NCBI RefSeq assembly: GCF_021054785.1
Contig: NZ_CP088239.1
Span: forward strand, 810,001 to 842,000
DNA: 32,000 bases
Direction: 5' to 3'
From: Tannockella kyphosi
Lineage (GTDB): Bacteria; Bacillota_I; Bacilli_A; Erysipelotrichales; Coprobacillaceae
Part shown: piece after piece, positions 8,448 through 28,901 of the stretch
How the letters are laid out: every line of letters begins with the position of its first letter
Position numbering within the stretch: position 1 is the stretch's first letter
Notes under the pieces: generated by a model
Database searches by the model: none
Told to the model about the DNA's origin: nothing
What the model saw: only the letters and a program-made list of their open reading frames with translations
Translations under genes and position numbers: made by a program

Positions 8448-8499
8448 TCTTTTTTTCATATTCTTTCTATTCTTGAATATAGTAGATAGAGGTGTAAAA

Positions 8500-9624
8500 A
8501 TGAAAAAAATAATAGGCTGTTTATTAGTGATTGTTATCTTACAAGATAATATATATGGATTAGGAGATAATGCCAAAGCAATGGTTTTAATGGAAGCTAG
8601 TACCAATCAAGTATTGGAACAAAATAATCCTAGTGAGACTTTATATCCTGCATCAACAACCAAAATAATGACAATGATTTTATTATTTGAAGCCCTTAAT
8701 CAAGGAGTTACTTCTTTTGATACAATGGTTTCAACAAGTGAATATGCTAGTGGAATGGGCGGAAGTCAAGTATATTTAGAAACAGGAGAACAAATGAGTG
8801 TCTATGATTTATTTAAGTCTATTGCAATAGCTAGTGCTAATGATGCGAGTGTGGTTATTGGAGAGCATTTGGGTGGAACAATTGAAAACTTTGTAGTAAT
8901 GATGAATGAAAAGGCTGTTGCTTTAGGATTAGAAAATACGAACTTTACAAATGCAACTGGATTACATGATGATAACCATTATACTAGTGCTTATGATTTA
9001 GCAGTTATGGCTAGTTATTTAATTGAAATAGGTGGACAAGATTTATTGGATGTGACATCTTTATATGATAGTTATATTAGAGAAGATAATGAACAACCTT
9101 TTTGGTTAGTAAATACGAATAAATTATTAAAGACTTATAATGTAGATGGACTTAAAACAGGTTATACAAGTGAAGCAGGATATTGTTTAGTATCGACTAT
9201 TGAAAAGGATGGAATGCGTTTAATTGGCGTGTTGCTAGATGAAGAATTACCAGATATAAGAAATCAAGAGATGATTGAATTATTAGAATATGGTTTTAGT
9301 CAGTATACAAAAGATACGCTTTATTCCCAAGGGGATCAAGTAGATATTTTAGAAATAGAAAATATCTCATCCAATCATATTGATGTTATTGTCAATCAAG
9401 ATGTAGCTATTGTTATGAAAAAAACAGAAACCAGTACGATAGAAACAAAGATTTCTTATTATGAAGATATTGGATCTATCTTTTTAGATACACCGATTGG
9501 AGTATTAGAGATATATAAAGATGGTGTAGTAGTAGAACAAATTAATTTATATAGTAAAGAAGTAGTATTAGAAGATAATTATTTTACTAGAGTATATTAT
9601 ACATTTAGTCAGCTTTGGCATTAA
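8500..9624 (+). CDS. dacF: D-alanyl-D-alanine carboxypeptidase (class C low-MW PBP, DacF-like)
   Basis: Signal peptide, then the active-site SxxK (ASTTKIMT), an SAN motif (IASAN, the SxN equivalent) and KTGYT. It sits immediately upstream of the spoIIA operon, as dacF does in Bacillus. ATG 8500 is preferred over TTG 8473 because the SD AGAGGTG precedes it. Confidence 0.85.
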   Translation: MKKIIGCLLVIVILQDNIYGLGDNAKAMVLMEASTNQVLEQNNPSETLYPASTTKIMTMILLFEALNQGVTSFDTMVSTSEYASGMGGSQVYLETGEQMSVYDLFKSIAIASANDASVVIGEHLGGTIENFVVMMNEKAVALGLENTNFTNATGLHDDNHYTSAYDLAVMASYLIEIGGQDLLDVTSLYDSYIREDNEQPFWLVNTNKLLKTYNVDGLKTGYTSEAGYCLVSTIEKDGMRLIGVLLDEELPDIRNQEMIELLEYGFSQYTKDTLYSQGDQVDILEIENISSNHIDVIVNQDVAIVMKKTETSTIETKISYYEDIGSIFLDTPIGVLEIYKDGVVVEQINLYSKEVVLEDNYFTRVYYTFSQLWH

Positions 9625-17601: not shown

Positions 17602-17630
17602 TTGACATTTTGGTGTCATTGTGGAATAAT
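17602..17630 (+). promoter_or_regulatory. Candidate sigma-A promoter for the ABC transporter operon, with an overlapping small palindrome
   Basis: TTGACA (17602-17607), 17 nt of spacer, AATAAT (17625-17630). The inverted repeat TGACA-n6-TGTCA (17603-17618) overlaps the -35 and the spacer. Confidence 0.45.
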
Positions 17631-17663
17631 ATGGGTATACAATTCAAAAAGGAGAGGAATTTG

Positions 17664-18713
17664 ATGAAAAAATTATTGGTATTAGTTTTAAGTGTATGTT
17701 TATCATGCACAACATTAGTTGGATGTTCTTCAAGTGAAGAGGAAGAAGATAGAGAATTGGTTATCTATGGTTCTTGCGAAGAAGAATATTTAGCAGCAGT
17801 TGCAGTTGCTTTTGAAGAATATTCTGGTATATCTGTTAGTTATCAAAGATTGTCAACTGGAGAAGTTTTAACAAAAATTGAAGAAGAAGATGGTAACCCA
17901 AGTGCCGATGTATGGTTTGGGGGAACTACTGATCCTTACAATGAAGCAGCTGAATTAGGTTTGTTATATGCTTATGATGCAGAGAATGCAGAAAACTTAA
18001 TTGGTGATCAGTATAAACATGAAGATAATTATTGGTATGGTATCTATACTGGTATCTTAGGTATCTTCTGGAATACGGAAGAATTAGATCGTTTAGGTTT
18101 AGAAGCACCTAGTGATTGGGATGATTTATTAAATCCTGAATATGAAGGATTAATTGCATTTGCAAATCCTAATACTTCTGGTACAGGTTTATTATTCATT
18201 AACACTATGGTTCAAATTATGGGTGAAGATGCAGCAATGGATTATTTTGCAGAATTAGATAATAATATTATGCAATATACAAAGAGTGGTTCTGGTGCAT
18301 CTAAAATGGTTCCTTTAGGGGAAGTTGTTATAGGTGTTGGATTCTTACATGACGTAGTATATCAAATTGTTGATATGGGATATGATAACATCGGTATGAC
18401 TGCTCCAACATCAGGAACATCATATGAAATTGGTGCTACTGCAATTTTTGAAGGAGCTACTAATATGGATGAAGCACAAGAATTTATTGAATTTGCTTTA
18501 TCACCAGACTGTGTTGATATTGCACAAGAAAATGGTTCTTATCAATTCTTAGTAATTGATGGTGCTGCAGATGTTCAAGCAGCTGTTGATGCTGGATTAG
18601 ATACTATCGAAACAATTGAATATGATTTCGAAGATGCTACAGCAAATGGTTCTGCTTATAGAGAAACATTCTTTGAAGTTATTAACAACGATGATCGTGT
18701 AATGACTGAATAA
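17664..18713 (+). CDS. ABC transporter substrate-binding lipoprotein, Fe(III)-type (family 1 extracellular solute-binding protein)
   Basis: Lipoprotein signal MKKLLVLVLSVCLSCTTLVGC with the lipobox LVGC. The mature protein resembles FbpA/AfuA-like binding proteins (VWFGGT, NPNTSGTG). ATG 17664 follows the SD AAGGAG. The longer 17610 form is rejected. Confidence 0.75.
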   Translation: MKKLLVLVLSVCLSCTTLVGCSSSEEEEDRELVIYGSCEEEYLAAVAVAFEEYSGISVSYQRLSTGEVLTKIEEEDGNPSADVWFGGTTDPYNEAAELGLLYAYDAENAENLIGDQYKHEDNYWYGIYTGILGIFWNTEELDRLGLEAPSDWDDLLNPEYEGLIAFANPNTSGTGLLFINTMVQIMGEDAAMDYFAELDNNIMQYTKSGSGASKMVPLGEVVIGVGFLHDVVYQIVDMGYDNIGMTAPTSGTSYEIGATAIFEGATNMDEAQEFIEFALSPDCVDIAQENGSYQFLVIDGAADVQAAVDAGLDTIETIEYDFEDATANGSAYRETFFEVINNDDRVMTE

Positions 18714-18733
18714 TATTAGTTAAGTAAAATAAT

Positions 18734-18773
18734 AAACAGAGTGCGTGGCACTAGCCACCACTTTGTTTTTGTT
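18734..18773 (+). promoter_or_regulatory. Strong intercistronic hairpin between the binding-protein and permease genes (partial terminator or mRNA stabiliser)
   Basis: AAACAGAGTG-c-GTGGC-acta-GCCAC-CACTTTGTTT (18734-18768) forms about 15 bp with one bulge and one G-U pair. It is followed by TTGTT. Confidence 0.6.
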
Positions 18774-18801
18774 AAGAAAAGTTATTTTAAGGAGGTAAAT
18801 T

Positions 18802-20511
18802 ATGGACTTGAAACAAGCGAAAAAATTAGAGAGAAAGAAGTTTTTTTCTGATCCATTTACGGTAATAGCTGTTGTAGGGCTATTTTTATTCTTATTTTTA
18901 TTTATTTTATATCCATTAACTATTTTACTTGTGGACAGTATGTATATTGATTCAAAGTTTACGTTTGATACATTTATACGAATTTTTAATATGTCTGCAT
19001 TTAAGATTGCAATTAAAAATACGTTAGTTCTAGGTACTATTACTGGTATTGGTGGGACTGTTATAGGTTTTGCTTTTGCGTATTTAGATGCTTATATTTT
19101 AATTAAAAATAAGTTTATAAAAGGAATGTTTAATGCAATATCTATTTTACCAGTAGTATCACCACCTTTTGTATTATCTTTGTCAGCTATCTTTTTGTTT
19201 GGTAGAACTGGATTTATTACAAGAGGAATATTTGATTTAAGTACAATTGCGTTGTATGGATTACCAGGGATAGCTTTAGTTCAAATTCTAACATTTTTCC
19301 CTGTGTGTTATTTAATGTTAAAAGGGTTACTTCGTAATATTGATCCTTCTTTAGAAGAGGCTGCAAGAAATATGGGTGCTTCTCGTTGGCAAGTTTTTAA
19401 AACTGTTACGTTGCCATTGTTGTTACCTGGACTTACAAATGCATTTTTAATTACATTTATTGAGTCAGTAGCTGATTTTGCTAATCCAATGTTAATTGGG
19501 GGAAGTTATGATACGTTAGCAACTTCTATTTATTTACAGTTAACAGGGGCCTATGATAAAGCTGGAGCAACTGCGATGGCTGTTGTGTTGCTTGTTATAT
19601 CGATGGGATTGTTTATTTTTGCCAAATATGGAGTAGAAAGTAAATCTGTATCTACTTTAACAGGAAAAGCGTCAAGAGAAAGACAATTAGTTTCTGAACG
19701 AAATGTCAAAGCTCCATTGATGATTTTCTGTACTTGTATTGGTGGTTTTGTTTTATTAATGTATTTTATTGTTCCATTAGGATCATTGTTTACATTATGG
19801 GGACAAGATTATTCATTATCATTTAAATGGTATGAATATGTCTTTAAAAACAAAGGATATACCGTCTTTACAGATTCGATGATCTTAGCGGCTATTGCTG
19901 CACCAATCACGGCATTCTTGTCGATGTTGATTGCATATCTAGTTGTAAAGAAAAAGTTTTTTGGGAAGAGTATTATGGAATTTGTTGCTATGTTAGCAAT
20001 GGCAGTTCCTGGAACGGTATTAGGTGTTGGATTTATTCGTGGGTTTAGTAGTGGATTGTACTACACTGGAATACTATCAGGTTTATATGGTACAGGGGCA
20101 ATTATTATTATTGTTTTTGTTGTTCGATCGTTGCCTGTTGGAACTAGAAGTGGGATTGCTGCATTACGACAAATTGATAAATCGATTGAAGAATCGGCGT
20201 TTGATTTAGGTGCCTCGGGAGCAAAAGTATTTACTTCTGTTACGTTGCCACTTATTAAAGATTCTTTCTTTAGTGGATTAGTAACTACATTTGTACGTTC
20301 TATTACTGCTATTTCTGCAATTATCTTATTAGTAACACCAGAATACTTATTGATTACAGTACGTATCAATGAGTTTGCAGAAAAAGGAAGTTATGGTGTA
20401 GCATGTGCTTATGCAACTATATTAATTATTATTACTTTTACAGCAATTATGTTAATGGAAGCTGTGTTAAAGAGAATCAGTACTACAAAACAATTTACAG
20501 GAGGAGAGTAG
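18802..20511 (+). CDS. ABC transporter permease, fused double-domain (FbpB/AfuB-like)
   Basis: 569 aa with about 12 TM segments and two EAA-like loops (EEAARNMGASRWQVFKTVTLP and EESAFDLGASGAKVFTSVTLP). This indicates tandem BPD-type permease domains. Confidence 0.85.
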   Translation: MDLKQAKKLERKKFFSDPFTVIAVVGLFLFLFLFILYPLTILLVDSMYIDSKFTFDTFIRIFNMSAFKIAIKNTLVLGTITGIGGTVIGFAFAYLDAYILIKNKFIKGMFNAISILPVVSPPFVLSLSAIFLFGRTGFITRGIFDLSTIALYGLPGIALVQILTFFPVCYLMLKGLLRNIDPSLEEAARNMGASRWQVFKTVTLPLLLPGLTNAFLITFIESVADFANPMLIGGSYDTLATSIYLQLTGAYDKAGATAMAVVLLVISMGLFIFAKYGVESKSVSTLTGKASRERQLVSERNVKAPLMIFCTCIGGFVLLMYFIVPLGSLFTLWGQDYSLSFKWYEYVFKNKGYTVFTDSMILAAIAAPITAFLSMLIAYLVVKKKFFGKSIMEFVAMLAMAVPGTVLGVGFIRGFSSGLYYTGILSGLYGTGAIIIIVFVVRSLPVGTRSGIAALRQIDKSIEESAFDLGASGAKVFTSVTLPLIKDSFFSGLVTTFVRSITAISAIILLVTPEYLLITVRINEFAEKGSYGVACAYATILIIITFTAIMLMEAVLKRISTTKQFTGGE

Positions 20512-20514
20512 AGT

Positions 20515-21594
20515 ATGAAAACTCCAAAAGGTGTTCAATTAAAAGATATATCGAAAGTATATCTTGATCCAAAAACAAAAAAAGAATTTTATGCAGTTGA
20601 TCATATATCATTAGATATAGAACCAGGTCAATTTGTCACTTTACTTGGTCCCTCAGGATGTGGTAAAACAACAACATTAAGAATGATTGCTGGTTTTGAA
20701 AGTCCAGATAGTGGGGAAATAGATTTAGGTGGAGAGGCTATCAATGAACTACCACCAAATAAAAGAGATACTGCCATGGTTTTCCAAAGCTATGCTTTAT
20801 TACCACATATCAATGTATACCAAAATGTAGCTTATGGTTTAAACATTAAAAAATTACCTAAAAATGAAATTAAAGAACGTGTTACTAAAATGTTAGAATT
20901 AGTGGAATTAGAAGGTATGGAAGAAAGAATGACAAATCAATTATCCGGAGGACAACAACAACGTGTAGCGCTTGCTAGAGCGTTAGTTATGGAACCAGGA
21001 GTATTGTTGTTTGATGAACCTTTATCTAACTTAGATGCGAAGTTACGTGTTTCTATGCGAACAGAAATTCGAAAAATTCAACAAATGATTGGTATTACGG
21101 CTGTTTATGTTACCCATGATCAATCGGAAGCAATGAGTATTTCTGATCAAGTTATTGTCATGAATAAAGGAGTTATTGCTCAAAAAGGAACTCCAAGAGA
21201 AATTTATTTACAACCAAAAGATAAATTTGTTGCTCAATTTATTGGAGAAGCTAATTTTATTAATGGAAAAGTACTTGATAAAGCTGAAAATGAAGTGACA
21301 GTGGAATTAAATGGATCACCTGTTCAAATTCCTTTTAAAGGAAGTTTGGAAGTAGATGAAGTATGTGAAATCGTGATTAGACCAGAATCAATTGTTTTAG
21401 AAGATGAAGGATTACTTCCATGTGAAGTTATTTTATCTACATTTATGGGAACTCATCAATATTATGAAGTATTAGTAGATGGTGTTCGTTTTACTGTAAC
21501 AGAATATAATCCAAAATCTCATAAAACATATAATGCGGGAGATAAAGCTTTCTTAGTATTTGATGTCCATAATTTACATATTTTAGATAAATAA
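20515..21594 (+). CDS. ABC transporter ATP-binding protein with a C-terminal TOBE-like domain (FbpC/PotA-like)
   Basis: Walker A GPSGCGKTT, Q-loop, signature LSGGQQQRVALARA, Walker B LLFDEPLS and an H-loop THDQ. The ~120-aa C-terminal extension is also present. Confidence 0.9.
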   Translation: MKTPKGVQLKDISKVYLDPKTKKEFYAVDHISLDIEPGQFVTLLGPSGCGKTTTLRMIAGFESPDSGEIDLGGEAINELPPNKRDTAMVFQSYALLPHINVYQNVAYGLNIKKLPKNEIKERVTKMLELVELEGMEERMTNQLSGGQQQRVALARALVMEPGVLLFDEPLSNLDAKLRVSMRTEIRKIQQMIGITAVYVTHDQSEAMSISDQVIVMNKGVIAQKGTPREIYLQPKDKFVAQFIGEANFINGKVLDKAENEVTVELNGSPVQIPFKGSLEVDEVCEIVIRPESIVLEDEGLLPCEVILSTFMGTHQYYEVLVDGVRFTVTEYNPKSHKTYNAGDKAFLVFDVHNLHILDK

Positions 21595-21606
21595 TTATTT
21601 TAAAAG

Positions 21607-21636
21607 AAGGATAAGATAACTTATCCTTTTCTTTTT
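21607..21636 (+). terminator. Intrinsic terminator after the ABC operon
   Basis: AAGGATAAG-ataa-CTTATCCTT is a perfect 9-bp stem followed by TTCTTTTT. Confidence 0.75.
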
Positions 21637-21698
21637 GTATTTATTTTAAAACAATCACACTATTTTTAACATTAATGTATACAATTTAACAATATTAC

Positions 21699-21728
21699 TT
21701 GATTATTTAATAATGATTGTGTTATTAT
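21699..21728 (+). promoter_or_regulatory. Candidate his operon promoter with an extended -10
   Basis: TTGATT (21699-21704), 18 nt of spacer, then TGtTATTAT (TG at 21720-21721, hexamer at 21723-21728). Confidence 0.5.
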
Positions 21729-21750
21729 TACAAAAACGAGGAGGTAGTTT

Positions 21751-21804
21751 ATGAAAAAAGCAAATATTTCACAATTACATCATCATTGGAGCTCACAGGG
21801 TTAA
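21751..21804 (+). CDS. Candidate histidine-operon leader peptide (17 aa, MKKANISQLHHHWSSQG)
   Basis: A strong SD GAGGAGG (21738-21744) lies 6 nt before the ATG. Three consecutive CAT His codons occupy 21778-21786. A hairpin and an intrinsic terminator follow, immediately upstream of hisZ. Confidence 0.6.
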   Translation: MKKANISQLHHHWSSQG

Positions 21805-21870
21805 ATCTTTTTGATATAGCCCATTTTAACATATTTATAAATGAGTTATATCTAATGTGCAAGTAAGACA

Positions 21871-21905
21871 AAAGCGTTCGTTAGGTTTAACGATACGCTT
21901 TTTTT
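21871..21905 (+). terminator. Intrinsic terminator inside the his leader (attenuator terminator)
   Basis: GCGTTCGTT-aggttt-AACGA(t)ACGC (21874-21898) is a 9-bp stem with one bulged T. It is flanked by AAA/T7 and ends 17 nt before the hisZ ATG. Confidence 0.7.
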
Positions 21906-21921
21906 AATAGGAGGGAAAACA

Positions 21922-22893
21922 ATGAAAGAATTTATGTATATCGTACCAGAGGAGAGTATTGACTGTGTTTTTGAGGATGTCACAAGTCTACGTTTTGTTG
22001 AAAATCAATTAAGGGAATGTTTTGTATCGAAACAGTACCAAGAAGTTTTGTTACCAAGTTTAGAGTATACAGATTTGTATATGTCACTTGATCCAAACTT
22101 AAAAACTAGTGAGATCTTTCAATTTATTAATCATGAGGGAAGAAGTATTGCGATGAGGTATGATTTTACGGTTCCTTTAGCTAGGCTTTATGCAACAACG
22201 CAAAAAGAAAATGAAGGGCGTTATTGTTATTTTGGGAAGGTTTATCGTAAAGTAAAACGTCATAAAGGAAGAAGTAGTGAAATTTATCAAGGTGGTGTTG
22301 AATTAATAAATTGTCCGGGTATTCAGGGTGATATTCAATGTCTTAATTTAATGCAACAAACAATACCAATGTTAGGTTTGGATAAAGTGATTGTGGAAGT
22401 TGGTTATGCACCATTTTTCCATCGTTTAATTGAGATTGTGGGTCATCCTGAAACGTTAACAAAAATATTGAAATATCGTGATATTAGTGGAATGAAGCAA
22501 TTTGTAGCAATATTAGATATTGATGTAACAATGCAACAATTATTATTAGCTTTACCAATGTCATTTGGTTCTTTAGATGAAATAAAAGATAAGATTTTAG
22601 CTACGAAAGATATGGTTTTAATAGAATGTTTACATTATTTAATAAAAATTAATGAATCAATGAGTTCTACATCGACTATTATTTTTGATTTAGGAATGGT
22701 TCCATCGATGCATTATTATACTGGGATTATGATCAAGGGTTATGCTAGTGAAAGTGTAGATTGTATTGTGAATGGTGGTCGTTATGATCATTTGTTAGAA
22801 AGATTTGATTTACCAGTAGGAGCAGTTGGGTTCTGTTATAACATTAGTCAAATTATTCAATCGATGCAAAAAGGGGTACAAAACAATGATTAA
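21922..22893 (+). CDS. hisZ: ATP phosphoribosyltransferase regulatory subunit HisZ (HisRS paralogue)
   Basis: 323 aa with class-II aaRS-like motifs ([29 protein letters not shown]) but no anticodon-binding domain. It lies directly upstream of a short-form hisG. Confidence 0.85.
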
Positions 22894-23512
22894 AATAGCA
22901 ATAACAAAAGGACGTATTGAAAAACAAGTTTGTAAAATGCTTGAAAAAGCAGGATATGATATGGATCCTATTTTTAATAAAGATAGAGAATTATTAATTG
23001 AAACAAAAGATGGTTTATCAATGATCTTTGGTAAAGCCAATGATGTCATTACATTTTTAGAACATGGTATTGTAGATGTTGGTTTTGTAGGGAAAGATAG
23101 TTTGGATGATAGTGATTTTGATGATTATTATGAGTTATTGGATTTAGAAATAGGGAAGTGTGTTTTTGCTCTAGCTGCTTATCCAAGTTATCGTGATTGT
23201 GATTTTAAACGTCGTAAAAAAATAGCTAGTAAATATCCTTTGGTAACTAAAAAATATTTTGCATCTAAAAAAGAAGATGTTGAAATTATTAAGTTAGAGG
23301 GTTCTGTAGAATTAGGACCTATTGTTGGTATTTCGGATGCAATTGTAGATATTGTAGAAACTGGTTCTACATTAAAAGCAAATGGATTAGAAGTAATTGA
23401 GGAAATAAGTGAAATATCAACACGCTTTATTTGTAATAAAGTTAGTTTGAAATTTAAAAAAGATGAAATCTTAGAAATGGTAGAAAAATTAGAAAAACAG
23501 GTAGGGAGATAG
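22886..23512 (+). CDS. hisG: ATP phosphoribosyltransferase, short form
   Basis: [14 protein letters not shown]..., VDVGFVGKD and [18 protein letters not shown]. About 208 aa, so it lacks the C-terminal regulatory domain, consistent with HisZ dependence. The ATG at 22886 overlaps the hisZ end by 8 nt. Confidence 0.9.
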
Positions 23513-23513
23513 T

Positions 23514-24818
23514 ATGTTAAAAATAATTCAATATACTGGTGATGTTTTCGAAATTGAAAATATTTTACAGAGTCGTAAAGAAAATGTCTCAAAAAAAGTA
23601 AATGAAGATGTCCAAGCAATCTTAGAAGATATTCAATGTAATAAAGATGAAGCATTAATGAAATACGCTAATCAATTTGATGGATATGTGATTGAAAAAC
23701 AAGAAGATTTATTTGTAACACAAGATGAAATAGAAGAGGCTATGAATGAGATAGATGATGATTACTTGCGTATTTTACAAAGAACGAAAAAACAAATTAC
23801 TGATTTTCATCAAAATCAAGTTGATAAATCTTGGTCTATGTATAAAGATAATGGAGTCATGTTAGGACAAATAGTACGTCCGATTGCTCGAGTAGGGCTT
23901 TATATTCCAGGAGGAACTGCTTTATATCCTTCTACCGTCTTAATGAATGCTATTCCAGCAAAACTTGCTGGAGTAAAAGAACTAGTTGCTTTTACTCCTG
24001 TTAAAGCAAATGGGAAGGTAGATCCTAAATTAATTGGTGCTGCAAAAGTATGTGGTGTTGATACGATTGTAAAAGTAGGTGGTGTTCACGGTGTAGGCGC
24101 TTTAGCGTATGGTACAAAGTGGTTAAAGAAGGTTGATAAAATTGTTGGTCCAGGTAATTTATATGTCGCTACAGCCAAAAAACAATGCTATGGAGTAGTG
24201 GATATTGATATGATTGCAGGACCTAGTGAAGTGCTTATTATTGCAGATGAAAATGCAAATCCTAAGTATGTTGCAGCTGATTTAATGTCTCAAGCAGAAC
24301 ATGATGTTTTAGCTAGTTCTATTTTGATTACAACATCGAAAGAGTTAGCGAATGAGGTGAATAAGGAAATTATTCGTCAAATGGCTTATTTAAATAGAAA
24401 AGATATTATTGAACAATCATTGAATAATTATGGTGGTATTATTTTAGTAGATAATTTATTAACTGCTTATCAAGTATCTAATGAATTAGCTCCAGAACAT
24501 TTAGAAATCTTAATTGATCAACCAATGGAAGCATTGCCTTATATAGAAAATGCTGGAAGCATATTCTTAGGGCAACATTCACCAGAACCTTTAGGAGATT
24601 ATATGTCTGGTACAAATCATGTATTACCTACTGGTGGTACTGCTAAATTCTATTCTGCTTTAGGAGTATATGATTTTGTAAAATATTCTTCTTACAGTTA
24701 TTATCCAAAACCAGTTTTAGAAACATTTAAAGAGGATGTAATCGCTTTTGCGAATAGTGAAGGACTAGATGGTCATGCGAATAGTATTGCAGTTCGTTTT
24801 GAGGAGGATGAGTTATGA
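23514..24818 (+). CDS. hisD: Histidinol dehydrogenase
   Basis: 434 aa with IPGGTALYPSTVLMNAIPAKLAGV, AGPSEVLIIAD, QAEHD and HVLPTGGTAKF motifs. Confidence 0.95.
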   Translation: MLKIIQYTGDVFEIENILQSRKENVSKKVNEDVQAILEDIQCNKDEALMKYANQFDGYVIEKQEDLFVTQDEIEEAMNEIDDDYLRILQRTKKQITDFHQNQVDKSWSMYKDNGVMLGQIVRPIARVGLYIPGGTALYPSTVLMNAIPAKLAGVKELVAFTPVKANGKVDPKLIGAAKVCGVDTIVKVGGVHGVGALAYGTKWLKKVDKIVGPGNLYVATAKKQCYGVVDIDMIAGPSEVLIIADENANPKYVAADLMSQAEHDVLASSILITTSKELANEVNKEIIRQMAYLNRKDIIEQSLNNYGGIILVDNLLTAYQVSNELAPEHLEILIDQPMEALPYIENAGSIFLGQHSPEPLGDYMSGTNHVLPTGGTAKFYSALGVYDFVKYSSYSYYPKPVLETFKEDVIAFANSEGLDGHANSIAVRFEEDEL

Positions 24819-25402
24819 GAGCAAGTAGTTTGAAAAGAGAAACTTTAGAAACTAGTATTGAATTATCATTGAATTTAGATGGGAATGGAACTAGTAATAT
24901 TCATACAGGTGTTGGCTTTTTTGATCATATGCTAACATTATTAGCTTTTCATGGTAATTTTGATTTAGAAGTTACTTGTCATGGTGATTTGGAAGTAGAT
25001 TGTCATCATACGGTTGAAGATATTGGAATTGCCTTAGGGATATGTATGAAAGAAGCTTTAGGGGATAAATTGGGAATTATGCGTTATGGGAGTTTTACTA
25101 TCCCAATGGATGAAGCAAAAGTAACAGTTGATTTAGATATTAGTGCTAGACCATATTTAGTATATAATTGTGATGTTTCATTGCCTTTACTAGGAAATTA
25201 TGAAACAGAAATGACAGAAGAGTTTTTTAGAGCTTTTAGTCAACAAGCAGGTATCACATTACATATTAATAAGGCATATGGTAAAAATACACACCACATT
25301 ATTGAAGCAGCTTTTAAAGCGACAGGTAGAGCTTTAGCAATAGCATTAAGTAATGATCCAACTAGAAGTAACAAAGTAATTTCTTCTAAAGGAGTTATTT
25401 AA
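24815..25402 (+). CDS. hisB: Imidazoleglycerol-phosphate dehydratase
   Basis: 195 aa with RETLETSIELSLNLDG, GVGFFDHML, DCHHTVEDIGIALG and HHIIEAAFKA. ATGA overlap with hisD. Confidence 0.95.
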   Translation: MRASSLKRETLETSIELSLNLDGNGTSNIHTGVGFFDHMLTLLAFHGNFDLEVTCHGDLEVDCHHTVEDIGIALGICMKEALGDKLGIMRYGSFTIPMDEAKVTVDLDISARPYLVYNCDVSLPLLGNYETEMTEEFFRAFSQQAGITLHINKAYGKNTHHIIEAAFKATGRALAIALSNDPTRSNKVISSKGVI

Positions 25403-26007
25403 TGATAGCAATTATTGATTATAATGTGGGTAATTTATTAAGTGTTCAAAGTGCTTTTGATCGTTTAGAAATGGAGAGTGTCATTACAAGAGATCCAATT
25501 GTAATAAAACAAGCAAAAGGGATTGTTTTACCTGGTGTAGGAACTTTTAAAGTAGCAATGCAAAATTTAAAACAATTTGGATTAATTGAAATAATAAGTG
25601 AATGTAAAGATAAAGGAGTTCCAATATTAGGGATTTGTTTAGGTATGCAGATTTTGTTTGAAAAAGGATTTGAAGTAGAAGAAACAAAGGGATTAGGGTT
25701 TATTCCAGGAGTTGTTGATTATATGAATATTGATGAAAAAATACCTCATATGGGATGGAATCAGTTAGTCTTTTGTCAAGAATCTCCTTTGTTACAATAT
25801 ATTGATGAACATGATGATGTTTATTTTGTACATTCTTATATGGCTACTTGTCCACAAGATAATTTAGTAGCTTATAGTATGTATGGATCCAATAAAATAA
25901 CAGCTATTGTTAAAAATAAGAATGTAATGGGATGTCAGTTTCATCCAGAAAAAAGTGGTAAAATTGGAAGTAAAATATTAATGGGATTTAGGGAGATGAT
26001 AGGATGA
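25402..26007 (+). CDS. hisH: Imidazole glycerol phosphate synthase, glutamine amidotransferase subunit
   Basis: 201 aa with IAIIDYNVGNLLSV, GICLGMQ (catalytic Cys) and FHPEKSG. TAATG overlap with hisB. Confidence 0.95.
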   Translation: MIAIIDYNVGNLLSVQSAFDRLEMESVITRDPIVIKQAKGIVLPGVGTFKVAMQNLKQFGLIEIISECKDKGVPILGICLGMQILFEKGFEVEETKGLGFIPGVVDYMNIDEKIPHMGWNQLVFCQESPLLQYIDEHDDVYFVHSYMATCPQDNLVAYSMYGSNKITAIVKNKNVMGCQFHPEKSGKIGSKILMGFREMIG

Positions 26008-26729
26008 TATTACTACCAGCAATAGACTTAAAAGATGGTCAAGCAGTGCGTTTATATAAAGGTGATTATAATCAAAAAACAGTATACAGTAATGATCCTA
26101 GTCAAATAGCGAAAACATTTGAACAAGCAGGAGCAAAATGGCTACACCTAGTAGATTTAGATGGGGCTAAGGATGGCCAATGTAAAAACTTATCAACAAT
26201 TAAAACGATTAAAAAAGCAACAAATATGTCTTTAGAATTAGGTGGCGGAATTCGTAATATAGAAACAGTAAGTATGTATTTAGATGAAGTAGGAATAGAT
26301 CGTGTTATTTTAGGTACAGCTGCTATTCAAGACCCTCTATTTTTACAAGCAGCATTAGATAAATATGGACCTAAAAGAATAGTCGTTGGAGTGGATGTAA
26401 AAGATGGTTTTGTTTCTACTGCAGGATGGTTAGAAACAAGCCAAACTAATTATTTAGATTTTATTTGTCAATTAGAAAAAATAGGAGTTCGTTATATAGT
26501 AGTAACTGATATTTCAAAAGATGGTACATTACAAGGACCTAATTTTCATATGTATCAAGAAATTTCTAAAGTTTCTTCGATTGAGTTTGTGGTATCTGGT
26601 GGTATTAAAGATCAACAAAATATTCTTGATTGTGCTAATTCTAATTATTATGGATGTATTGTAGGAAAAGCGTATTACGAAGGAAAAATTGATTTACAGG
26701 AGGTTATTTCATGCTTACCAAAAGAATAA
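26004..26729 (+). CDS. hisA: ProFAR isomerase (1-(5-phosphoribosyl)-5-[(5-phosphoribosylamino)methylideneamino]imidazole-4-carboxamide isomerase)
   Basis: 241 aa with [30 protein letters not shown] and SGGI motifs. Confidence 0.93.
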
Positions 26730-27475
26730 TTCCTTGTTTAGATATTAAAGATGGAAAAGTGGTCAAAGGTGTAAACTTTGTTGGTTTAACAGAAGTTGGT
26801 GATCCTGTTGATCTAGCAAAACGATATGAACAACAATGTGGAGATGAAGTGGTTTTTTTAGATATTACAGCTAGTTATGAAGATCGTAATATTATGAAAG
26901 AAATCATTGAAAGAGGTGCCAAAGAATTATCAATTCCTTTAGCAGTAGGTGGAGGTATTCGTACATTAGATGATTTTCGTATGATTCTAGCAAGTGGTGC
27001 GGATAAGGTTTCTGTCAATTCTTCTGCTATCGCTAATCCTTTGCTTATAAAAGAAGCAGCAAATGAATTTGGGGTACAATGTGTCGTTGTTGCAATTGAT
27101 GCTAAAAAGAATGAAAAAGGTAATTATGATGTTTATGTAAAAGGTGGCAGAGAAAATACTGGTATTGATTTAGTAACATGGGCAAAGCAATGTGAACAAT
27201 TAGGGGCTGGAGAAATTCTACTAACTAGTATGGATGGGGATGGAACAAAAGCAGGATATGATATTGATATGATTAATGCAGTATGTTCTGTTGTAGATAT
27301 TCCTGTAATAGCAAGTGGTGGATGTGGAAGTATTCAACATATTGTCGATGTTTTCCAACAAACTAACTGTGATGCTGCACTTGTTGCTTCTTTATTTCAT
27401 TATAATGAAGCTAGTGTTCAAGATGTAAAAGATGCGCTTTTAGAAGCCGGAATACAAGTAAGGAGAACAAACTAA
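26711..27475 (+). CDS. hisF: Imidazole glycerol phosphate synthase, cyclase subunit
   Basis: 254 aa with [40 protein letters not shown] and ASGG. It overlaps hisA by 19 nt. Confidence 0.95.
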
Positions 27476-28113
27476 TGAGACCAGATTTTAATAAAATGGA
27501 ACTTATTCCAGCAATTGTCCAAGATTATCAAACAAAACAAGTGTTAATGTTGGCGTATGTTAATGAAGAAGCTTATGATAAAATGTTAGAAACAAATTTA
27601 ACATATTTTTATTCTCGATCAAGAAAAGGATTATGGCATAAAGGAGAAACTTCAGGTCATATTCAACATATTAAAGGAATGTATTTAGATTGTGATTTGG
27701 ATACGATATTAATTTTTGTTGATCAAATTGGTGTAGCTTGTCATACTGGTGCTTATTCTTGTTTTTTTGAAGAAGTAAAACCATTTGATGGTAGTGATAT
27801 TTTTGTTGAAATAGAAAAAATGATTATCGAAAGAAAAGAAACTCCTGTCCCAAAATCATATACTAATTATTTATTAGAACAAGGAATTGATAAAGTTTGT
27901 AAAAAAATTGGTGAAGAAGCAAGTGAAACGATTATTGCTGCAAAAAACAATGATAAAGAAGAATTAGTTGGTGAAATTGGTGACTTATTATATCATGTAA
28001 TGGTATTGATGAATCAACAAGATATCTCTTTAGAAGATGTTCAAAACATTCTAAAACAAAGACATCAAATAACAGGTAATAAAAAAGTATTTCATACAAA
28101 AGGGGAATACTAA
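27475..28113 (+). CDS. hisI: Bifunctional phosphoribosyl-AMP cyclohydrolase / phosphoribosyl-ATP pyrophosphatase
   Basis: 212 aa. The N-terminal HisI part carries LIPAIVQD, SRSRKGLWHKGETSGH and CDLD...CHTG. The C-terminal HisE part carries SYTNYLL, KKIGEEASE and DLLYHVMVL. Confidence 0.93.
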   Translation: MRPDFNKMELIPAIVQDYQTKQVLMLAYVNEEAYDKMLETNLTYFYSRSRKGLWHKGETSGHIQHIKGMYLDCDLDTILIFVDQIGVACHTGAYSCFFEEVKPFDGSDIFVEIEKMIIERKETPVPKSYTNYLLEQGIDKVCKKIGEEASETIIAAKNNDKEELVGEIGDLLYHVMVLMNQQDISLEDVQNILKQRHQITGNKKVFHTKGEY

Positions 28114-28901
28114 TGAAAAAAATTGATTATCATATTCATACTCATTTTTCTGCTGATAGCCAAGAATATGTAAAAAATCATATTGAAAAAGCAATTGAAT
28201 TAGGTTTAGAAGAAATATGTTTTTGTGATCATCAAGACTTTTCTTATCCTGGAACTTCTTTTGATTTAGATGTGGATGCTTATTATAAAGAAATACAAAT
28301 GTATCAAAACATTTATAAAGATCAATTGATTATTAAATGGGGGATAGAAATTGGATTAGATTGTAATTATCAAAAAGAAATAAATACACTTATTCATAGT
28401 TATCCTTTTGATTTTGTAATAGGTTCTATCCATGTTATTGATAATCAAGAATTTTATGATCCAGCAATATTCTTTCATGGAAAATCAAAGAATGATGCGC
28501 ATCGTGATTTTTTTAAAGAAACACTAAAAGCTGTTCAAACATTTGATTGCTTTCATGTTTTAGGCCATCTAGATTATATTGTACGATATGGTCCTTATGA
28601 AGATAAAGAAATAGAATATGATGTTCATCAAGAGATTATTGATAACATACTAAAAACACTAATTCACAAAGGGATCGGTTTAGAACTAAACCTATCAGGA
28701 TATAAAGTTCATCAAACATGTGGATTCCCAAATTATAAGATATTACAACGTTATTATGATTTAGGTGGTAGAATCTTAACAACAGGTAGTGATAGTCACA
28801 TTTGTGATACATTAGGATATTGTTTAGATGATGCTCATCAACAATTACAAAATATTGGTTTTACTATTTCTACTTTTACTAATAAAACAATAGACAAATA
28901 A
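28113..28901 (+). CDS. hisK: Histidinol-phosphatase, PHP family (HisJ/HisK type)
   Basis: 262 aa. DYHIHTHFSADS at the N-terminus is the PHP metal-binding motif. Later His/Asp motifs follow (GSIH, LGHLDY, GSDSH). Last gene of the his operon, with a TAATG overlap. Confidence 0.85.
   Translation: MKKIDYHIHTHFSADSQEYVKNHIEKAIELGLEEICFCDHQDFSYPGTSFDLDVDAYYKEIQMYQNIYKDQLIIKWGIEIGLDCNYQKEINTLIHSYPFDFVIGSIHVIDNQEFYDPAIFFHGKSKNDAHRDFFKETLKAVQTFDCFHVLGHLDYIVRYGPYEDKEIEYDVHQEIIDNILKTLIHKGIGLELNLSGYKVHQTCGFPNYKILQRYYDLGGRILTTGSDSHICDTLGYCLDDAHQQLQNIGFTISTFTNKTIDK

What the first reader, a model, noticed from the sequence alone, without database searches (positions are those of the whole stretch)
21699..21921. 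Candidate ribosome-mediated (leader-peptide) attenuator for the histidine operon in a Bacillota genome
Between a plausible promoter and hisZ lies a 17-codon ORF (MKKANISQLHHHWSSQG) with an ideal SD and three consecutive His codons (21778-21786). A 14-bp hairpin follows (21813-21826 / 21839-21852), then a clean intrinsic terminator (21874-21898 plus T7) ending 17 nt before hisZ. GTTAAATCT (21800-21808, spanning the leader stop codon) is complementary, with one G-U pair, to AGGTTTAAC (21883-21891, the terminator loop plus the top of its 3' arm). A ribosome stalled at the His codons would leave this alternative helix free to disrupt the terminator. A ribosome reaching the stop codon would mask it. 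His operons in Bacillota are generally described as T-box controlled, while His-codon leader peptides are the proteobacterial paradigm and are only sporadically predicted in low-GC Gram-positives. No T-box features are visible here. Caveats: there are only three His codons, and the proposed antiterminator is short, AU-rich and engages the loop and 3' arm rather than the 5' arm.
Basis: partly seen in the sequence, partly recalled or inferred. Interest (0 to 1): 0.75.

Follow-up and report, generated by a model that had tools for sequence, protein, structure and literature searches.

The report
Histidine leader-peptide attenuator before hisZ
The stretch before the histidine-biosynthesis operon is a real, conserved switch: a tiny gene with a run of histidine codons most likely lets a stalled ribosome decide whether transcription continues. 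The same switch was already predicted by others in related gut bacteria in 2022.

Summary
Between a promoter-like site and hisZ lie a 17-codon ORF (21751-21804) with three His codons, several hairpins and an intrinsic terminator.

Comparative evidence supports the main interpretation. Forty-eight of 50 assessable Coprobacillaceae-type hisZ loci carry the same leader (16-18 codons, 3-5 His or His/Arg codons, usually followed by Trp). A covariance model built without the window hits 21766-21904 at 67 bits. No T-box or Rfam His_leader is present.

The conserved switch is:
- last two His codons, Trp codon and ORF tail (21784-95) pair with 21842-57 (anti-antiterminator);
- 21850-60 pairs with 21876-86 (antiterminator, 95% paired, compensatory changes);
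- terminator 21870-83 with 21888-902, then T7.

A toggling pair of hairpins lies in between: 21798-807 with 21813-22, or 21813-26 with 21839-52.

It is not new. Ashniev et al. 2022 (PMC9413887) predicted His leader-peptide attenuators in six Erysipelotrichales species, two of which are in my alignment. This is a new member of a known, computationally predicted, experimentally untested kind. Interest is low to moderate.

The parts
21605..21640 (+). Terminator of the upstream ABC-transporter operon. It delimits the his regulatory region and is not part of the attenuator.
   Evidence: Terminator scan. The upstream ORF ends at 21594.
21699..21728 (+). Promoter-like site: -35 TTGATT (21699-21704), an 18-nt spacer, then an extended -10 TG-n-TATTAT (21720-21728).
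   Evidence: A TGnTAnnAT-like box sits at the same distance, about 10-12 nt before the Shine-Dalgarno site, in the relatives (upstream strings). The transcription start is inferred, not mapped.
21740..21744 (+). Shine-Dalgarno sequence (GGAGG) of the leader ORF.
   Evidence: A GAGG(T)-type Shine-Dalgarno site precedes the leader ATG in 47 of 48 loci.
21751..21804 (+). Leader ORF MKKANISQLHHHWSSQG* (17 codons plus TAA).
   Evidence: Homologous leaders are 16-18 codons long in 47 of 48 loci. Length differences in the His run are multiples of 3 nt.
21778..21786 (+). Three consecutive His codons (CAT CAT CAT). This is the proposed sensor, where the ribosome stalls when charged tRNA-His is scarce.
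   Evidence: Relatives have 3-5 His codons, or runs of His codons with one Arg codon in five loci. Stalling is inferred.
21784..21795 (+). Segment s1 plus tail (CATTGGAGCTCA): the last His codon, the Trp codon and the next codons. It is the 5' strand of the anti-antiterminator.
   Evidence: It pairs with 21842-21857 in the MFE of the free RNA. The helix is 84% paired across 47 sequences and shows covariation.
21798..21807 (+). Segment s2 (GGGTTAAATC). It pairs with s3 and, in this window, contains the leader stop codon.
   Evidence: 89% paired; present in the RNAalifold consensus; the apical pair covaries AU:19 / UA:12.
21813..21826 (+). Segment s3 (GATATAGCCC, extended by ATTT). It pairs either with s2 or with s4. 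The U-rich tail ATTTT is nearly invariant.
21839..21852 (+).
   Evidence: 84% paired; a C-G to U-A compensatory change in the window and L007.
21842..21857 (+). Segments s4 and s5 as the 3' strand of the anti-antiterminator (TGAGTTATATCTAATG). It pairs with 21784-21795.
21850..21860 (+). Segment s5 (ATCTAATGTGC), the 5' strand of the antiterminator.
   Evidence: It pairs with 21876-21886 when the His codons are masked. Conserved helix.
21876..21886 (+). Segment s6 (GTTCGTTAGGT), the 3' strand of the antiterminator. It overlaps the upper 5' arm and the loop of the terminator.
21870..21905 (+). Intrinsic terminator: stem 21870-21883 / 21888-21902 (one bulged U), loop GGTT, T7 at 21899-21905.
   Evidence: A terminator sits at the equivalent position in all relatives.
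21910..21924 (+). hisZ Shine-Dalgarno sequence (GGAGGG 21910-21915) and start codon (21922). Neither lies inside the terminator hairpin.

Best explanation
This is a ribosome-mediated (leader-peptide) transcription attenuator of the hisZGDBHAF-IE-J operon. It belongs to the family shared by Coprobacillaceae-type Erysipelotrichales.

How it most likely works:
- A transcript starting near 21735 carries a 17-codon ORF with three His codons.
- The last His codon, the Trp codon and the ORF tail (s1, 21784-95) are complementary to s4/s5 (21842-57).
- s5 (21850-60) is alternatively complementary to s6 (21876-86), which is the upper 5' arm and loop of the terminator.
- If no ribosome sits on s1, s1 captures s5 as soon as s5 is made. 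This happens when the leader has been translated and the ribosome released, or when it was never translated. The small s2:s3 hairpin lies inside that loop. s6 then stays free and the terminator forms, so the operon is off.
- If His-tRNA is scarce, the ribosome stalls on the His codons and covers s1. s5 stays single-stranded until s6 appears, s5:s6 forms, the terminator cannot form, and transcription reads through into hisZ.
- The alternative hairpins s2:s3 and s3:s4 are both under selection. They probably relay the ribosome's position, since a ribosome at the stop codon masks s2 and lets s3:s4 form. They may also provide a pause (hairpin followed by AUUUU) that synchronises RNA polymerase and ribosome.

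What is shown: sequence conservation, conservation of the reading frame, helix covariation, and folding predictions. What is inferred: stalling, timing, pausing and the regulatory outcome.
For: Leader conservation:
- 47 related loci have the leader directly upstream of hisZ, and L024 has a copy further upstream. The leaders have a Shine-Dalgarno site, an ATG, 16-18 codons, a His run and a stop about 110-135 nt before hisZ.
- Length differences within the His run are 3 or 6 nt, and His codons vary at third positions. This indicates the ORF is translated.

Membership:
- A model built without the window hits 21766-21904 at 67 bits, E 8e-12.

Helices:
- The antiterminator s5:s6 is 95.4% paired, and 3 of its 8 pairs show changes on both sides, for example U-A to C-G in 6 Catenibacterium sequences. 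RNAalifold recovers it without guidance.
- The anti-antiterminator is 84% paired, with a covariation score of 0.238 against 0.138 in shuffles (0 of 500 as high). The Trp to Arg-Gly change in Catenibacterium is compensated in s5.
- s3:s4 and the terminator are 84% and 91% paired, with compensatory changes.

Folding:
- For the transcript through s5 without a ribosome, s1:s5 is in the MFE in 36 of 47 sequences and s2:s3 in 43 of 47.
- In the window, P(s5:s6) rises from 0.10 (free) to 0.76 when the His-stall footprint is masked.

Other:
- No T-box, His_leader or other Rfam family matches.
- The upstream operon has its own terminator.
- An independent publication describes the same class in the same order (PMC9413887).
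Against: - There is no experimental evidence in any member of this family.
- The window has only three His codons. Its closest relative, L084, has His-Arg-His.
- At equilibrium the full-length RNA always folds into the terminator, whatever mask is applied. The model therefore rests on an untested kinetic order of folding.
- With a ribosome parked on the stop codon, predicted folds still show s5:s6. Termination under His excess therefore requires either fast ribosome release or that s3:s4 weakens the antiterminator. Neither could be tested.
- In free RNA truncated after s6, the two conformations are nearly isoenergetic in many relatives.
- s1:s5 is weak in Catenibacterium.
- Transcription-translation coupling is reported to be weak in B. 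subtilis (PMC7858274) and is unknown for this order.
Confidence: 0.85

Rival explanations
1. Same attenuator class, but a relay logic like the E. coli his leader sets the His-replete state. A ribosome reaching the stop codon masks s2, so s3 pairs with s4. That trims the antiterminator by the 1-3 nt it shares with s4, and the terminator wins. A ribosome stalled on the His codons leaves s2:s3 intact, so s4/s5 is fully free for s6. On this reading, s1:s5 serves only the untranslated ('super-attenuated') state.
For: s2:s3 and s3:s4 are both conserved and each has compensatory changes. The stop codon directly abuts s2 in 43 of 48 loci. With the stop-codon mask, the s5:s6 helix shortens from 8-9 to 5-7 pairs in most sequences.
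Against: The overlap of s4 and s5 is only 1-3 nt, and the two helices could stack coaxially. Predicted folds with the stop-codon mask still contain s5:s6. This reading does not explain the strong covariation of s1 with s5 unless both routes operate.
Confidence: 0.3
2. The conserved core (GGGUUAUAUC...GAUACAGCCCAUUUUG...) is the binding site of a protein or small ligand that controls the terminator. On this reading the short ORF is incidental or only modulatory.
For: Several positions in s2/s3 and the AUUUU tract are invariant beyond what pairing alone requires.
Against: The Shine-Dalgarno site, ATG, reading frame and His run are conserved, with frame-preserving indels. The His and Trp codons are themselves part of a covarying helix. 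No Rfam riboswitch matches. Erysipelotrichales lack the HisR repressor according to PMC9413887.
Confidence: 0.07
3. It is a T-box or another known riboswitch that the reader overlooked.
For: T-boxes control his operons in other Erysipelotrichales and in Lactobacillales (PMC9413887).
Against: There is no T-box hit, even at E up to 10, in 21560-21960. No family reaches its gathering score in the window or in 12 related loci.
Confidence: 0.01
4. It is a chance short ORF next to an ordinary terminator or insulator between two operons.
For: One CAYCAYCAY per window is expected by chance.
Against: The whole arrangement is conserved in 48 loci from many genera. The model hit has E 8e-12. The upstream operon already has its own terminator at 21605-21630.
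Confidence: 0.01

Closest known systems
[quoted passage not shown] 2022, BMC Genomics 23:558, PMC9413887, Additional file 6C)
   Same: It has the same gene context (hisZ first) and the same order of bacteria. It has a leader peptide with 3-5 His codons, an 'attenuator hairpin', a terminator and an antiterminator. Two of the paper's six species are in my alignment: Thomasclavelia ([Clostridium]) cocleata DSM 1551 is L002 and Catenibacterium mitsuokai DSM 15897 is L039. The model built from that alignment hits the window.
   Different: The window comes from an unnamed lineage. Its HisZ is at most 77% identical to any protein found and 54-57% identical to the best genome-collection loci. Its leader lost the usual UAG and ends two codons later inside s2. 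Its terminator sequence differs. The alignment panel for the Erysipelotrichales group in that paper could not be read here, so I cannot say which helices its authors drew.
E. coli / Salmonella his operon leader (Rfam His_leader RF00514)
   Same: It is a short ORF with tandem His codons. A chain of alternative hairpins ends in an intrinsic terminator. A stalled ribosome selects the antiterminator.
   Different: There is no sequence or structure match. Ashniev et al. also found no RF00514 hit in Firmicutes. This element has 3-5 His codons rather than 7. Its anti-antiterminator is a long-range helix between the His/Trp codons and a segment about 55 nt downstream, enclosing a small hairpin.
Candidate His attenuators of Peptostreptococcaceae / Lutispora and of the Bacillus cereus group (PMC9413887; Naville & Gautheret 2010, PMC2965389)
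   Same: They are leader peptides with His runs upstream of hisZ in Bacillota. The Peptostreptococcaceae and Lutispora sequences align collinearly with the profile of this family (His codons, AGGG, GAUACA(A)GCCC, U-run, GGG..UGUA). Their scores of 9.3, 7.5 and 4.6 bits exceed all 600 shuffles, whose maximum is 3.7.
   Different: The similarity is weak and common descent is not established.
Leucine-rich leader-peptide attenuator of the ilv-leu operon in Staphylococcus aureus (PMC5794164)
   Same: It is a leader-peptide attenuator in a Bacillota species, reported in an experimental study of the S. aureus ilv-leu operon. Only its title and the start of its abstract were read here.
   Different: It concerns a different amino acid, operon and RNA, and it acts together with CodY.

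Membership tests
Leader-peptide (ribosome-mediated) transcription attenuator | Short translatable ORF (Shine-Dalgarno site, start, stop) in the 5' leader, with tandem codons for the pathway's end-product amino acid | tested here: met
   GGAGG 21740-44; ATG 21751; three CAT codons 21778-86; TAA 21802-04. Conserved in 48 loci with frame-preserving indels.
Leader-peptide (ribosome-mediated) transcription attenuator | Intrinsic terminator between the leader ORF and the first structural gene | tested here: met
   Stem 21870-83 / 21888-902 plus T7. Equivalent terminators occur in all relatives.
Leader-peptide (ribosome-mediated) transcription attenuator | Antiterminator helix mutually exclusive with the terminator | tested here: met
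   21850-60 pairs with 21876-86. It is 95.4% paired across 47 sequences, with compensatory changes, and is recovered by RNAalifold.
Leader-peptide (ribosome-mediated) transcription attenuator | The segment that sequesters the antiterminator lies within the footprint of a ribosome stalled at the regulatory codons | tested here: met
   21784-95 (last His codon, Trp codon, tail) pairs with 21842-57 and covaries. Masking the stall footprint switches s5 to s6. The footprint size is assumed to be about 11 nt beyond the A-site codon.
Leader-peptide (ribosome-mediated) transcription attenuator | Read-through increases when charged tRNA-His is limiting and depends on leader translation | not testable with these tools
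   This needs reporter fusions or Term-seq. No experimental data were found for this family.
Erysipelotrichales His attenuator (Ashniev et al. 2022) | Sequence and structure match to the element upstream of hisZ in the published species | tested here: met
   Model R1 was built from 46 relatives, including T. cocleata DSM 1551 and C. mitsuokai DSM 15897. It hits the window at 21766-21904, 67 bits, E 8e-12, full length.
Rfam His_leader (RF00514, proteobacterial) | Covariance-model match | tested here: not met
   No hit at E up to 10 in 21560-21960 and none at gathering score.
T-box leader (RF00230) | Covariance-model match (specifier loop, T-box sequence) | tested here: not met
   No hit at E up to 10. 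None at gathering score in the window or in 12 related loci.
HisR (TrpR-family) repressor control | hisR gene in the genome and HisR operator upstream of the his operon | not tested
   Only 32 kb is available. PMC9413887 reports that all 20 Erysipelotrichales genomes it analysed lack HisR.

The most novel reading that the evidence does not exclude
The Erysipelotrichales, Peptostreptococcaceae and Lutispora elements may form one widespread Bacillota His-leader RNA family that is absent from Rfam. Its conserved five-segment relay (s1 to s6) and its invariant hairpin plus AUUUU tract after the leader stop codon may act as a programmed RNA-polymerase pause. Such a pause would synchronise ribosome and polymerase in a phylum where transcription and translation are thought to be largely uncoupled.
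Probability: 0.25. Interest if true: 0.5.

Novelty: new member of a known kind. Interest (0 to 1): 0.3.

Why it matters
The window adds one more, fairly divergent, example to a class of histidine attenuators already predicted in Bacillota. This analysis adds three things.
- The element is present in 48 of 50 assessable hisZ loci; the two without it are a Lactococcus and an unclassified Bacillota MAG.
- There is helix-by-helix covariation support for a concrete switch, in which the His and Trp codons are themselves one strand of the anti-antiterminator.
- That pairing explains why a Trp codon follows the His run.

Ribosome-dependent attenuation needs the ribosome to keep pace with RNA polymerase. 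A well-conserved family in cultivable gut Erysipelotrichales (Thomasclavelia, Catenibacterium) is therefore a usable test case for whether, and how, such coupling or pausing operates in Bacillota. The family has no Rfam model, so his operons in these genomes are currently annotated without a regulator.

Tried and rejected
- **Rfam scans.** I scanned the window at gathering thresholds and 21560-21960 at E up to 10. Only chance-level hits appeared (STnc40, freshwater-2 and others). There was no T-box and no His_leader.
Counted across the alignment, it is no better than shuffles, and its 3' strand lies in a terminator-loop insertion that most relatives lack. It is also lost in the closest relative.
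- **Equilibrium folding of the full leader.** I masked the RNA with ribosome footprints at three positions. The terminator is always in the MFE, so this test cannot discriminate the states. I switched to truncated, co-transcriptional intermediates.
- **T-boxes in loci without an adjacent leader (L024, L041, L042) and in Clostridia loci.** None reached threshold within the flanks held. L024 turned out to carry the attenuator further upstream.
- **Profile search against Peptostreptococcaceae and Lutispora sequences copied from the paper's supplement.** The matches are collinear but weak. This is suggestive only.
- **Weak secondary hits of model R1 in the window.** These include 9309-9397 on the minus strand at E 0.066. 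I judged them to be chance; ORF 8473-9624 (+) spans that position.
- **Single CAYCAYCAY statistics.** Not significant on their own.

Full report
**1. What is in the sequence**

The stretch reads as the first-stage reader described.
- After the stop of an ABC-transporter ATPase gene (21594) and its own terminator (21605-21630) comes a promoter-like site. It consists of TTGATT at 21699-21704, an 18-nt spacer and an extended -10 box TG-n-TATTAT at 21720-21728.
- A GGAGG Shine-Dalgarno site lies at 21740-44.
- A 17-codon ORF follows: ATG 21751 to TAA 21802-04, encoding MKKANISQLHHHWSSQG. Its CAT CAT CAT codons are at 21778-86.
- Downstream are a 13/14-bp hairpin (21813-26 with 21839-52) and an intrinsic terminator. 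The terminator stem is 21870-83 with 21888-902, followed by T7 at 21899-905.
- hisZ starts at 21922 and heads hisZGDBHAF-IE-J.

On its own this is not statistically remarkable. One CAYCAYCAY per window is expected by chance, and the fold z-score is -2.47.

**2. No known RNA family matches**

Rfam finds nothing at gathering thresholds in the whole window. At E up to 10 in 21560-21960 it finds only chance-level hits, with no T-box and no proteobacterial His_leader.

**3. Conservation**

HisZ homologues place the window among Coprobacillaceae-type Erysipelotrichales. These include Thomasclavelia, Faecalibacillus, Massilimicrobiota, Longibaculum, Stoquefichus, Coprobacillus, Catenibacterium and Beduini. 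The best genome-collection loci are only 54-57% identical, and the closest protein is 77% identical.

I fetched 79 hisZ loci.
- In 47 of them a homologous leader ORF lies 107-136 nt upstream of hisZ (233 nt in L008, which has an insertion).
- It is 16-18 codons long in 46 of these loci (L050 is the exception, section 8). A GAGG(T)-type Shine-Dalgarno site precedes the ATG, and the consensus is M-K-K-x5-Q-[LF]-H3-5-W-x-x-stop.
- A 48th copy (L024) sits about 560 nt upstream of hisZ.
- The two assessable loci without it are a Lactococcus and an unclassified Bacillota MAG, in which hisZ is preceded by another gene.
- Clostridia, cyanobacterial and proteobacterial loci lack it.
- Length variation within the His run is always 3 or 6 nt, and His codons vary at third positions. 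This is the signature of a translated ORF.

A covariance model built from the 46 distinct relatives, without the window, hits 21766-21904 full length at 67 bits, E 8e-12. It is the only significant hit in the window.

**4. The RNA switch**

The alignment (A2) shows seven conserved segments. In window coordinates they are:

| Segment | Coordinates | Description |
|---|---|---|
| s1 + tail | 21784-95 | last His codon, Trp codon, next codons |
| s2 | 21798-807 | pairs with s3 |
| s3 | 21813-22, extended to 21826 | pairs with s2 or s4 |
| s4 | 21839-52 | pairs with s3 |
| s5 | 21850-60 | pairs with s1 or s6 |
| s6 | 21876-86 | upper 5' arm and loop of the terminator |
| terminator 3' arm | 21888-902 | pairs with 21870-83 |

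The helix counts on 47 sequences were as follows.

| Helix | Cells paired | Evidence of selection |
|---|---|---|
| s5:s6 (antiterminator) | 95.4% | 3 of 8 pairs changed on both sides, e.g. U-A to C-G in six Catenibacterium sequences |
| s1+tail : s4/s5 (anti-antiterminator) | 84% | covariation score 0.238 against 0.138 in shuffles, 0 of 500 as high; slid controls 31-48% paired |
| s2:s3 | 88.9% | apical pair covaries (AU 19, UA 12) |
| s3:s4 | 84% | C-G to U-A change in the window and L007 |
| terminator | 91% | compensatory changes |

In Catenibacterium the Trp codon is replaced by Arg-Gly codons. The partner bases in s5 change so that pairing is kept: G-C becomes U-A and A-U becomes U-A. 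The conserved Trp codon is therefore explained by RNA pairing (UGG with CUA), not by the peptide. RNAalifold, run without guidance, returns s2:s3 plus s5:s6, which is the read-through conformation.

**5. Folding**

- For the free window RNA, the MFE pairs 21784-95 with 21842-57, encloses s2:s3 and forms the terminator.
- For transcripts ending just after s5, with no ribosome, s1:s5 is in the MFE in 36 of 47 sequences and s2:s3 in 43 of 47.
- For transcripts ending after s6, masking the footprint of a ribosome stalled on the His codons switches s5 to s6. In the window P(s5:s6) goes from 0.10 to 0.76, and the mean over all sequences goes from 0.40 to 0.64.
- With the complete terminator present, the terminator is always the equilibrium structure. 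This is usual for attenuators, and it means the decision must be kinetic.

**6. Mechanism and its open point**

The best-supported mechanism has three competing helices: the anti-antiterminator (s1 with s4/s5), the antiterminator (s5:s6) and the terminator (s6 with the 3' arm). It follows the classical trp/his attenuator logic as I recall it. The regulatory codons themselves are part of s1.
- A ribosome stalled for lack of His-tRNA hides s1. s5 then waits for s6, the terminator cannot form, and the operon is transcribed.
- Without a ribosome on s1, s1 captures s5 about 20-25 nt before s6 is made, and the terminator forms.

What happens while a ribosome sits on the stop codon remains open. The stop codon abuts s2 (43 of 48 loci use UAG). 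A ribosome there would free s3 to pair with s4, and predicted folds then still contain s5:s6, shortened from 8-9 to 5-7 pairs. There are two possibilities:
- ribosome release is fast relative to synthesis of the next 50 nt or so; or
- s3:s4 weakens the antiterminator enough, as in the relay of the E. coli his leader.

Both s2:s3 and s3:s4 are clearly under selection, so the relay idea deserves weight. I list it as the main rival for the His-replete route. The nearly invariant AUUUU after the s2:s3 hairpin could be a pause signal. This is speculation.

**7.

The helix 21800-08 with 21883-91 is complementary in the window but is not part of the conserved switch. Its 3' strand falls in a terminator-loop insertion absent from most relatives. 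Where letters exist, only 65.7% pair, and 278 of 500 shuffles do as well. In the closest relative (L084, HisZ 77% identical) both strands have changed without compensation, while s1:s5 and s5:s6 are kept.

**8. Known or new**

Ashniev et al. 2022 (PMC9413887) searched Firmicutes his operons that lack HisR and T-box control. They reported 'novel candidate RNA attenuators' with leader peptides of three to five His codons in three groups:
- the B. cereus group;
- five Eubacteriales species;
- six Erysipelotrichales species: Eggerthia, Erysipelatoclostridium ramosum, Catenibacterium mitsuokai DSM 15897, Coprobacillus cateniformis, [Clostridium] cocleatum DSM 1551 and [C.] spiroforme.

Two of those strains are rows L039 and L002 of my alignment. 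Naville and Gautheret 2010 (PMC2965389) had already described a His leader peptide upstream of hisZ in bacilli. From memory, and not verified here, Vitreschak et al. 2004 predicted such attenuators in B. cereus and C. difficile.

The class is therefore known, although only from computation. The window is a new and rather divergent member. Its UAG has been lost, so the ORF is extended by two codons into s2. Its terminator sequence differs, and it has only three His codons.

**9. Why it still has some value**

Ribosome-mediated attenuation requires that a ribosome be on the leader while the polymerase is still within about 120 nt. Transcription is reported to outrun translation in B. subtilis, though apparently not in C. 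difficile (PMC7858274, PMC8237595). A family conserved in 48 of the 50 assessable hisZ loci, in cultivable gut Erysipelotrichales, with an explicit helix-level model, is a practical system for testing that question. The family has no Rfam model.

A profile of it aligns collinearly, but weakly, with the Peptostreptococcaceae and Lutispora attenuator sequences printed in the paper's supplement. The scores are 9.3, 7.5 and 4.6 bits against a maximum of 3.7 in 600 shuffles. This hints at one broader family.

**10. Verdict**

I rate it a new member of a known kind, with interest 0.3.

Noticed in passing
window 21787-21789 and alignment A2 columns 28-30 / 107-109: The Trp codon after the His run is conserved in all loci except the Catenibacterium-type ones. 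It pairs with CUA in segment s5. In those loci it is replaced by Arg-Gly codons, with compensating changes in s5. The conservation is therefore RNA-structural, not peptide-level.
   Followed up: yes
window 21796-21804: The window (and L084) has CAG/GAG where relatives have the UAG stop. The leader therefore runs two codons further, to a UAA inside segment s2. A terminating ribosome would cover s2 and reach the start of s3.
   Followed up: partly
L084:1-173 (closest relative, HisZ 77% identical); also L016, L021, L030, L031: CAU to CGU (His to Arg) substitutions recur inside the His run. L084 is left with only His-Arg-His. It is unclear whether such leaders still sense histidine.
   Followed up: no
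L024:135-273 versus hisZ at L024:838: In this Coprobacillus MAG the attenuator (121 bits) is separated from hisZ by about 560 nt with no ORF over 50 aa and no Rfam hit. It may be an insertion or an unknown non-coding element.
   Followed up: partly
L008:2368-2500: Thomasclavelia spiroformis An567 has roughly 110 extra nucleotides between the attenuator terminator and hisZ.
   Followed up: no
L050 about 2290-2380: In Coprobacillaceae bacterium CR2/5/TPMF4, the ATG preceded by a Shine-Dalgarno site is out of frame with the His run, next to A-runs. This could be a homopolymer sequencing error or a decaying leader.
   Followed up: no
window 21823-21828 (ATTTTA); alignment A2 columns 71-76: An almost invariant AUUUU tract directly follows the s2:s3 hairpin. 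It resembles a hairpin-dependent pause or a weak terminator and might synchronise polymerase and ribosome.
   Followed up: no
Sequences in Additional file 6B of PMC9413887 (Terrisporobacter, Lutispora, Acetoanaerobium): They share collinear motifs with this family (His codons, AGGG, GAUACA(A)GCCC, U-run, GGG..UGUA, complement of the His codons). The match is weak but scores above all shuffles, so they may belong to one broader RNA family.
   Followed up: partly
window 21922-28901: The operon is hisZGDBHAF-IE followed by a HisJ-family histidinol phosphatase gene (28113-28901). No hisC lies between hisD and hisB, although PMC9413887 gives hisZGDCBHAF(IE) for the group.
   Followed up: partly
window 17610-21594: The upstream operon encodes an ABC transporter: a PhnS2-like binding protein, a fused PhnU2-like permease and a PotA/PhnT2-like ATPase. 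All score below the curated cut-offs, so the substrate is unknown. It has its own terminator at 21605-21630.
   Followed up: partly
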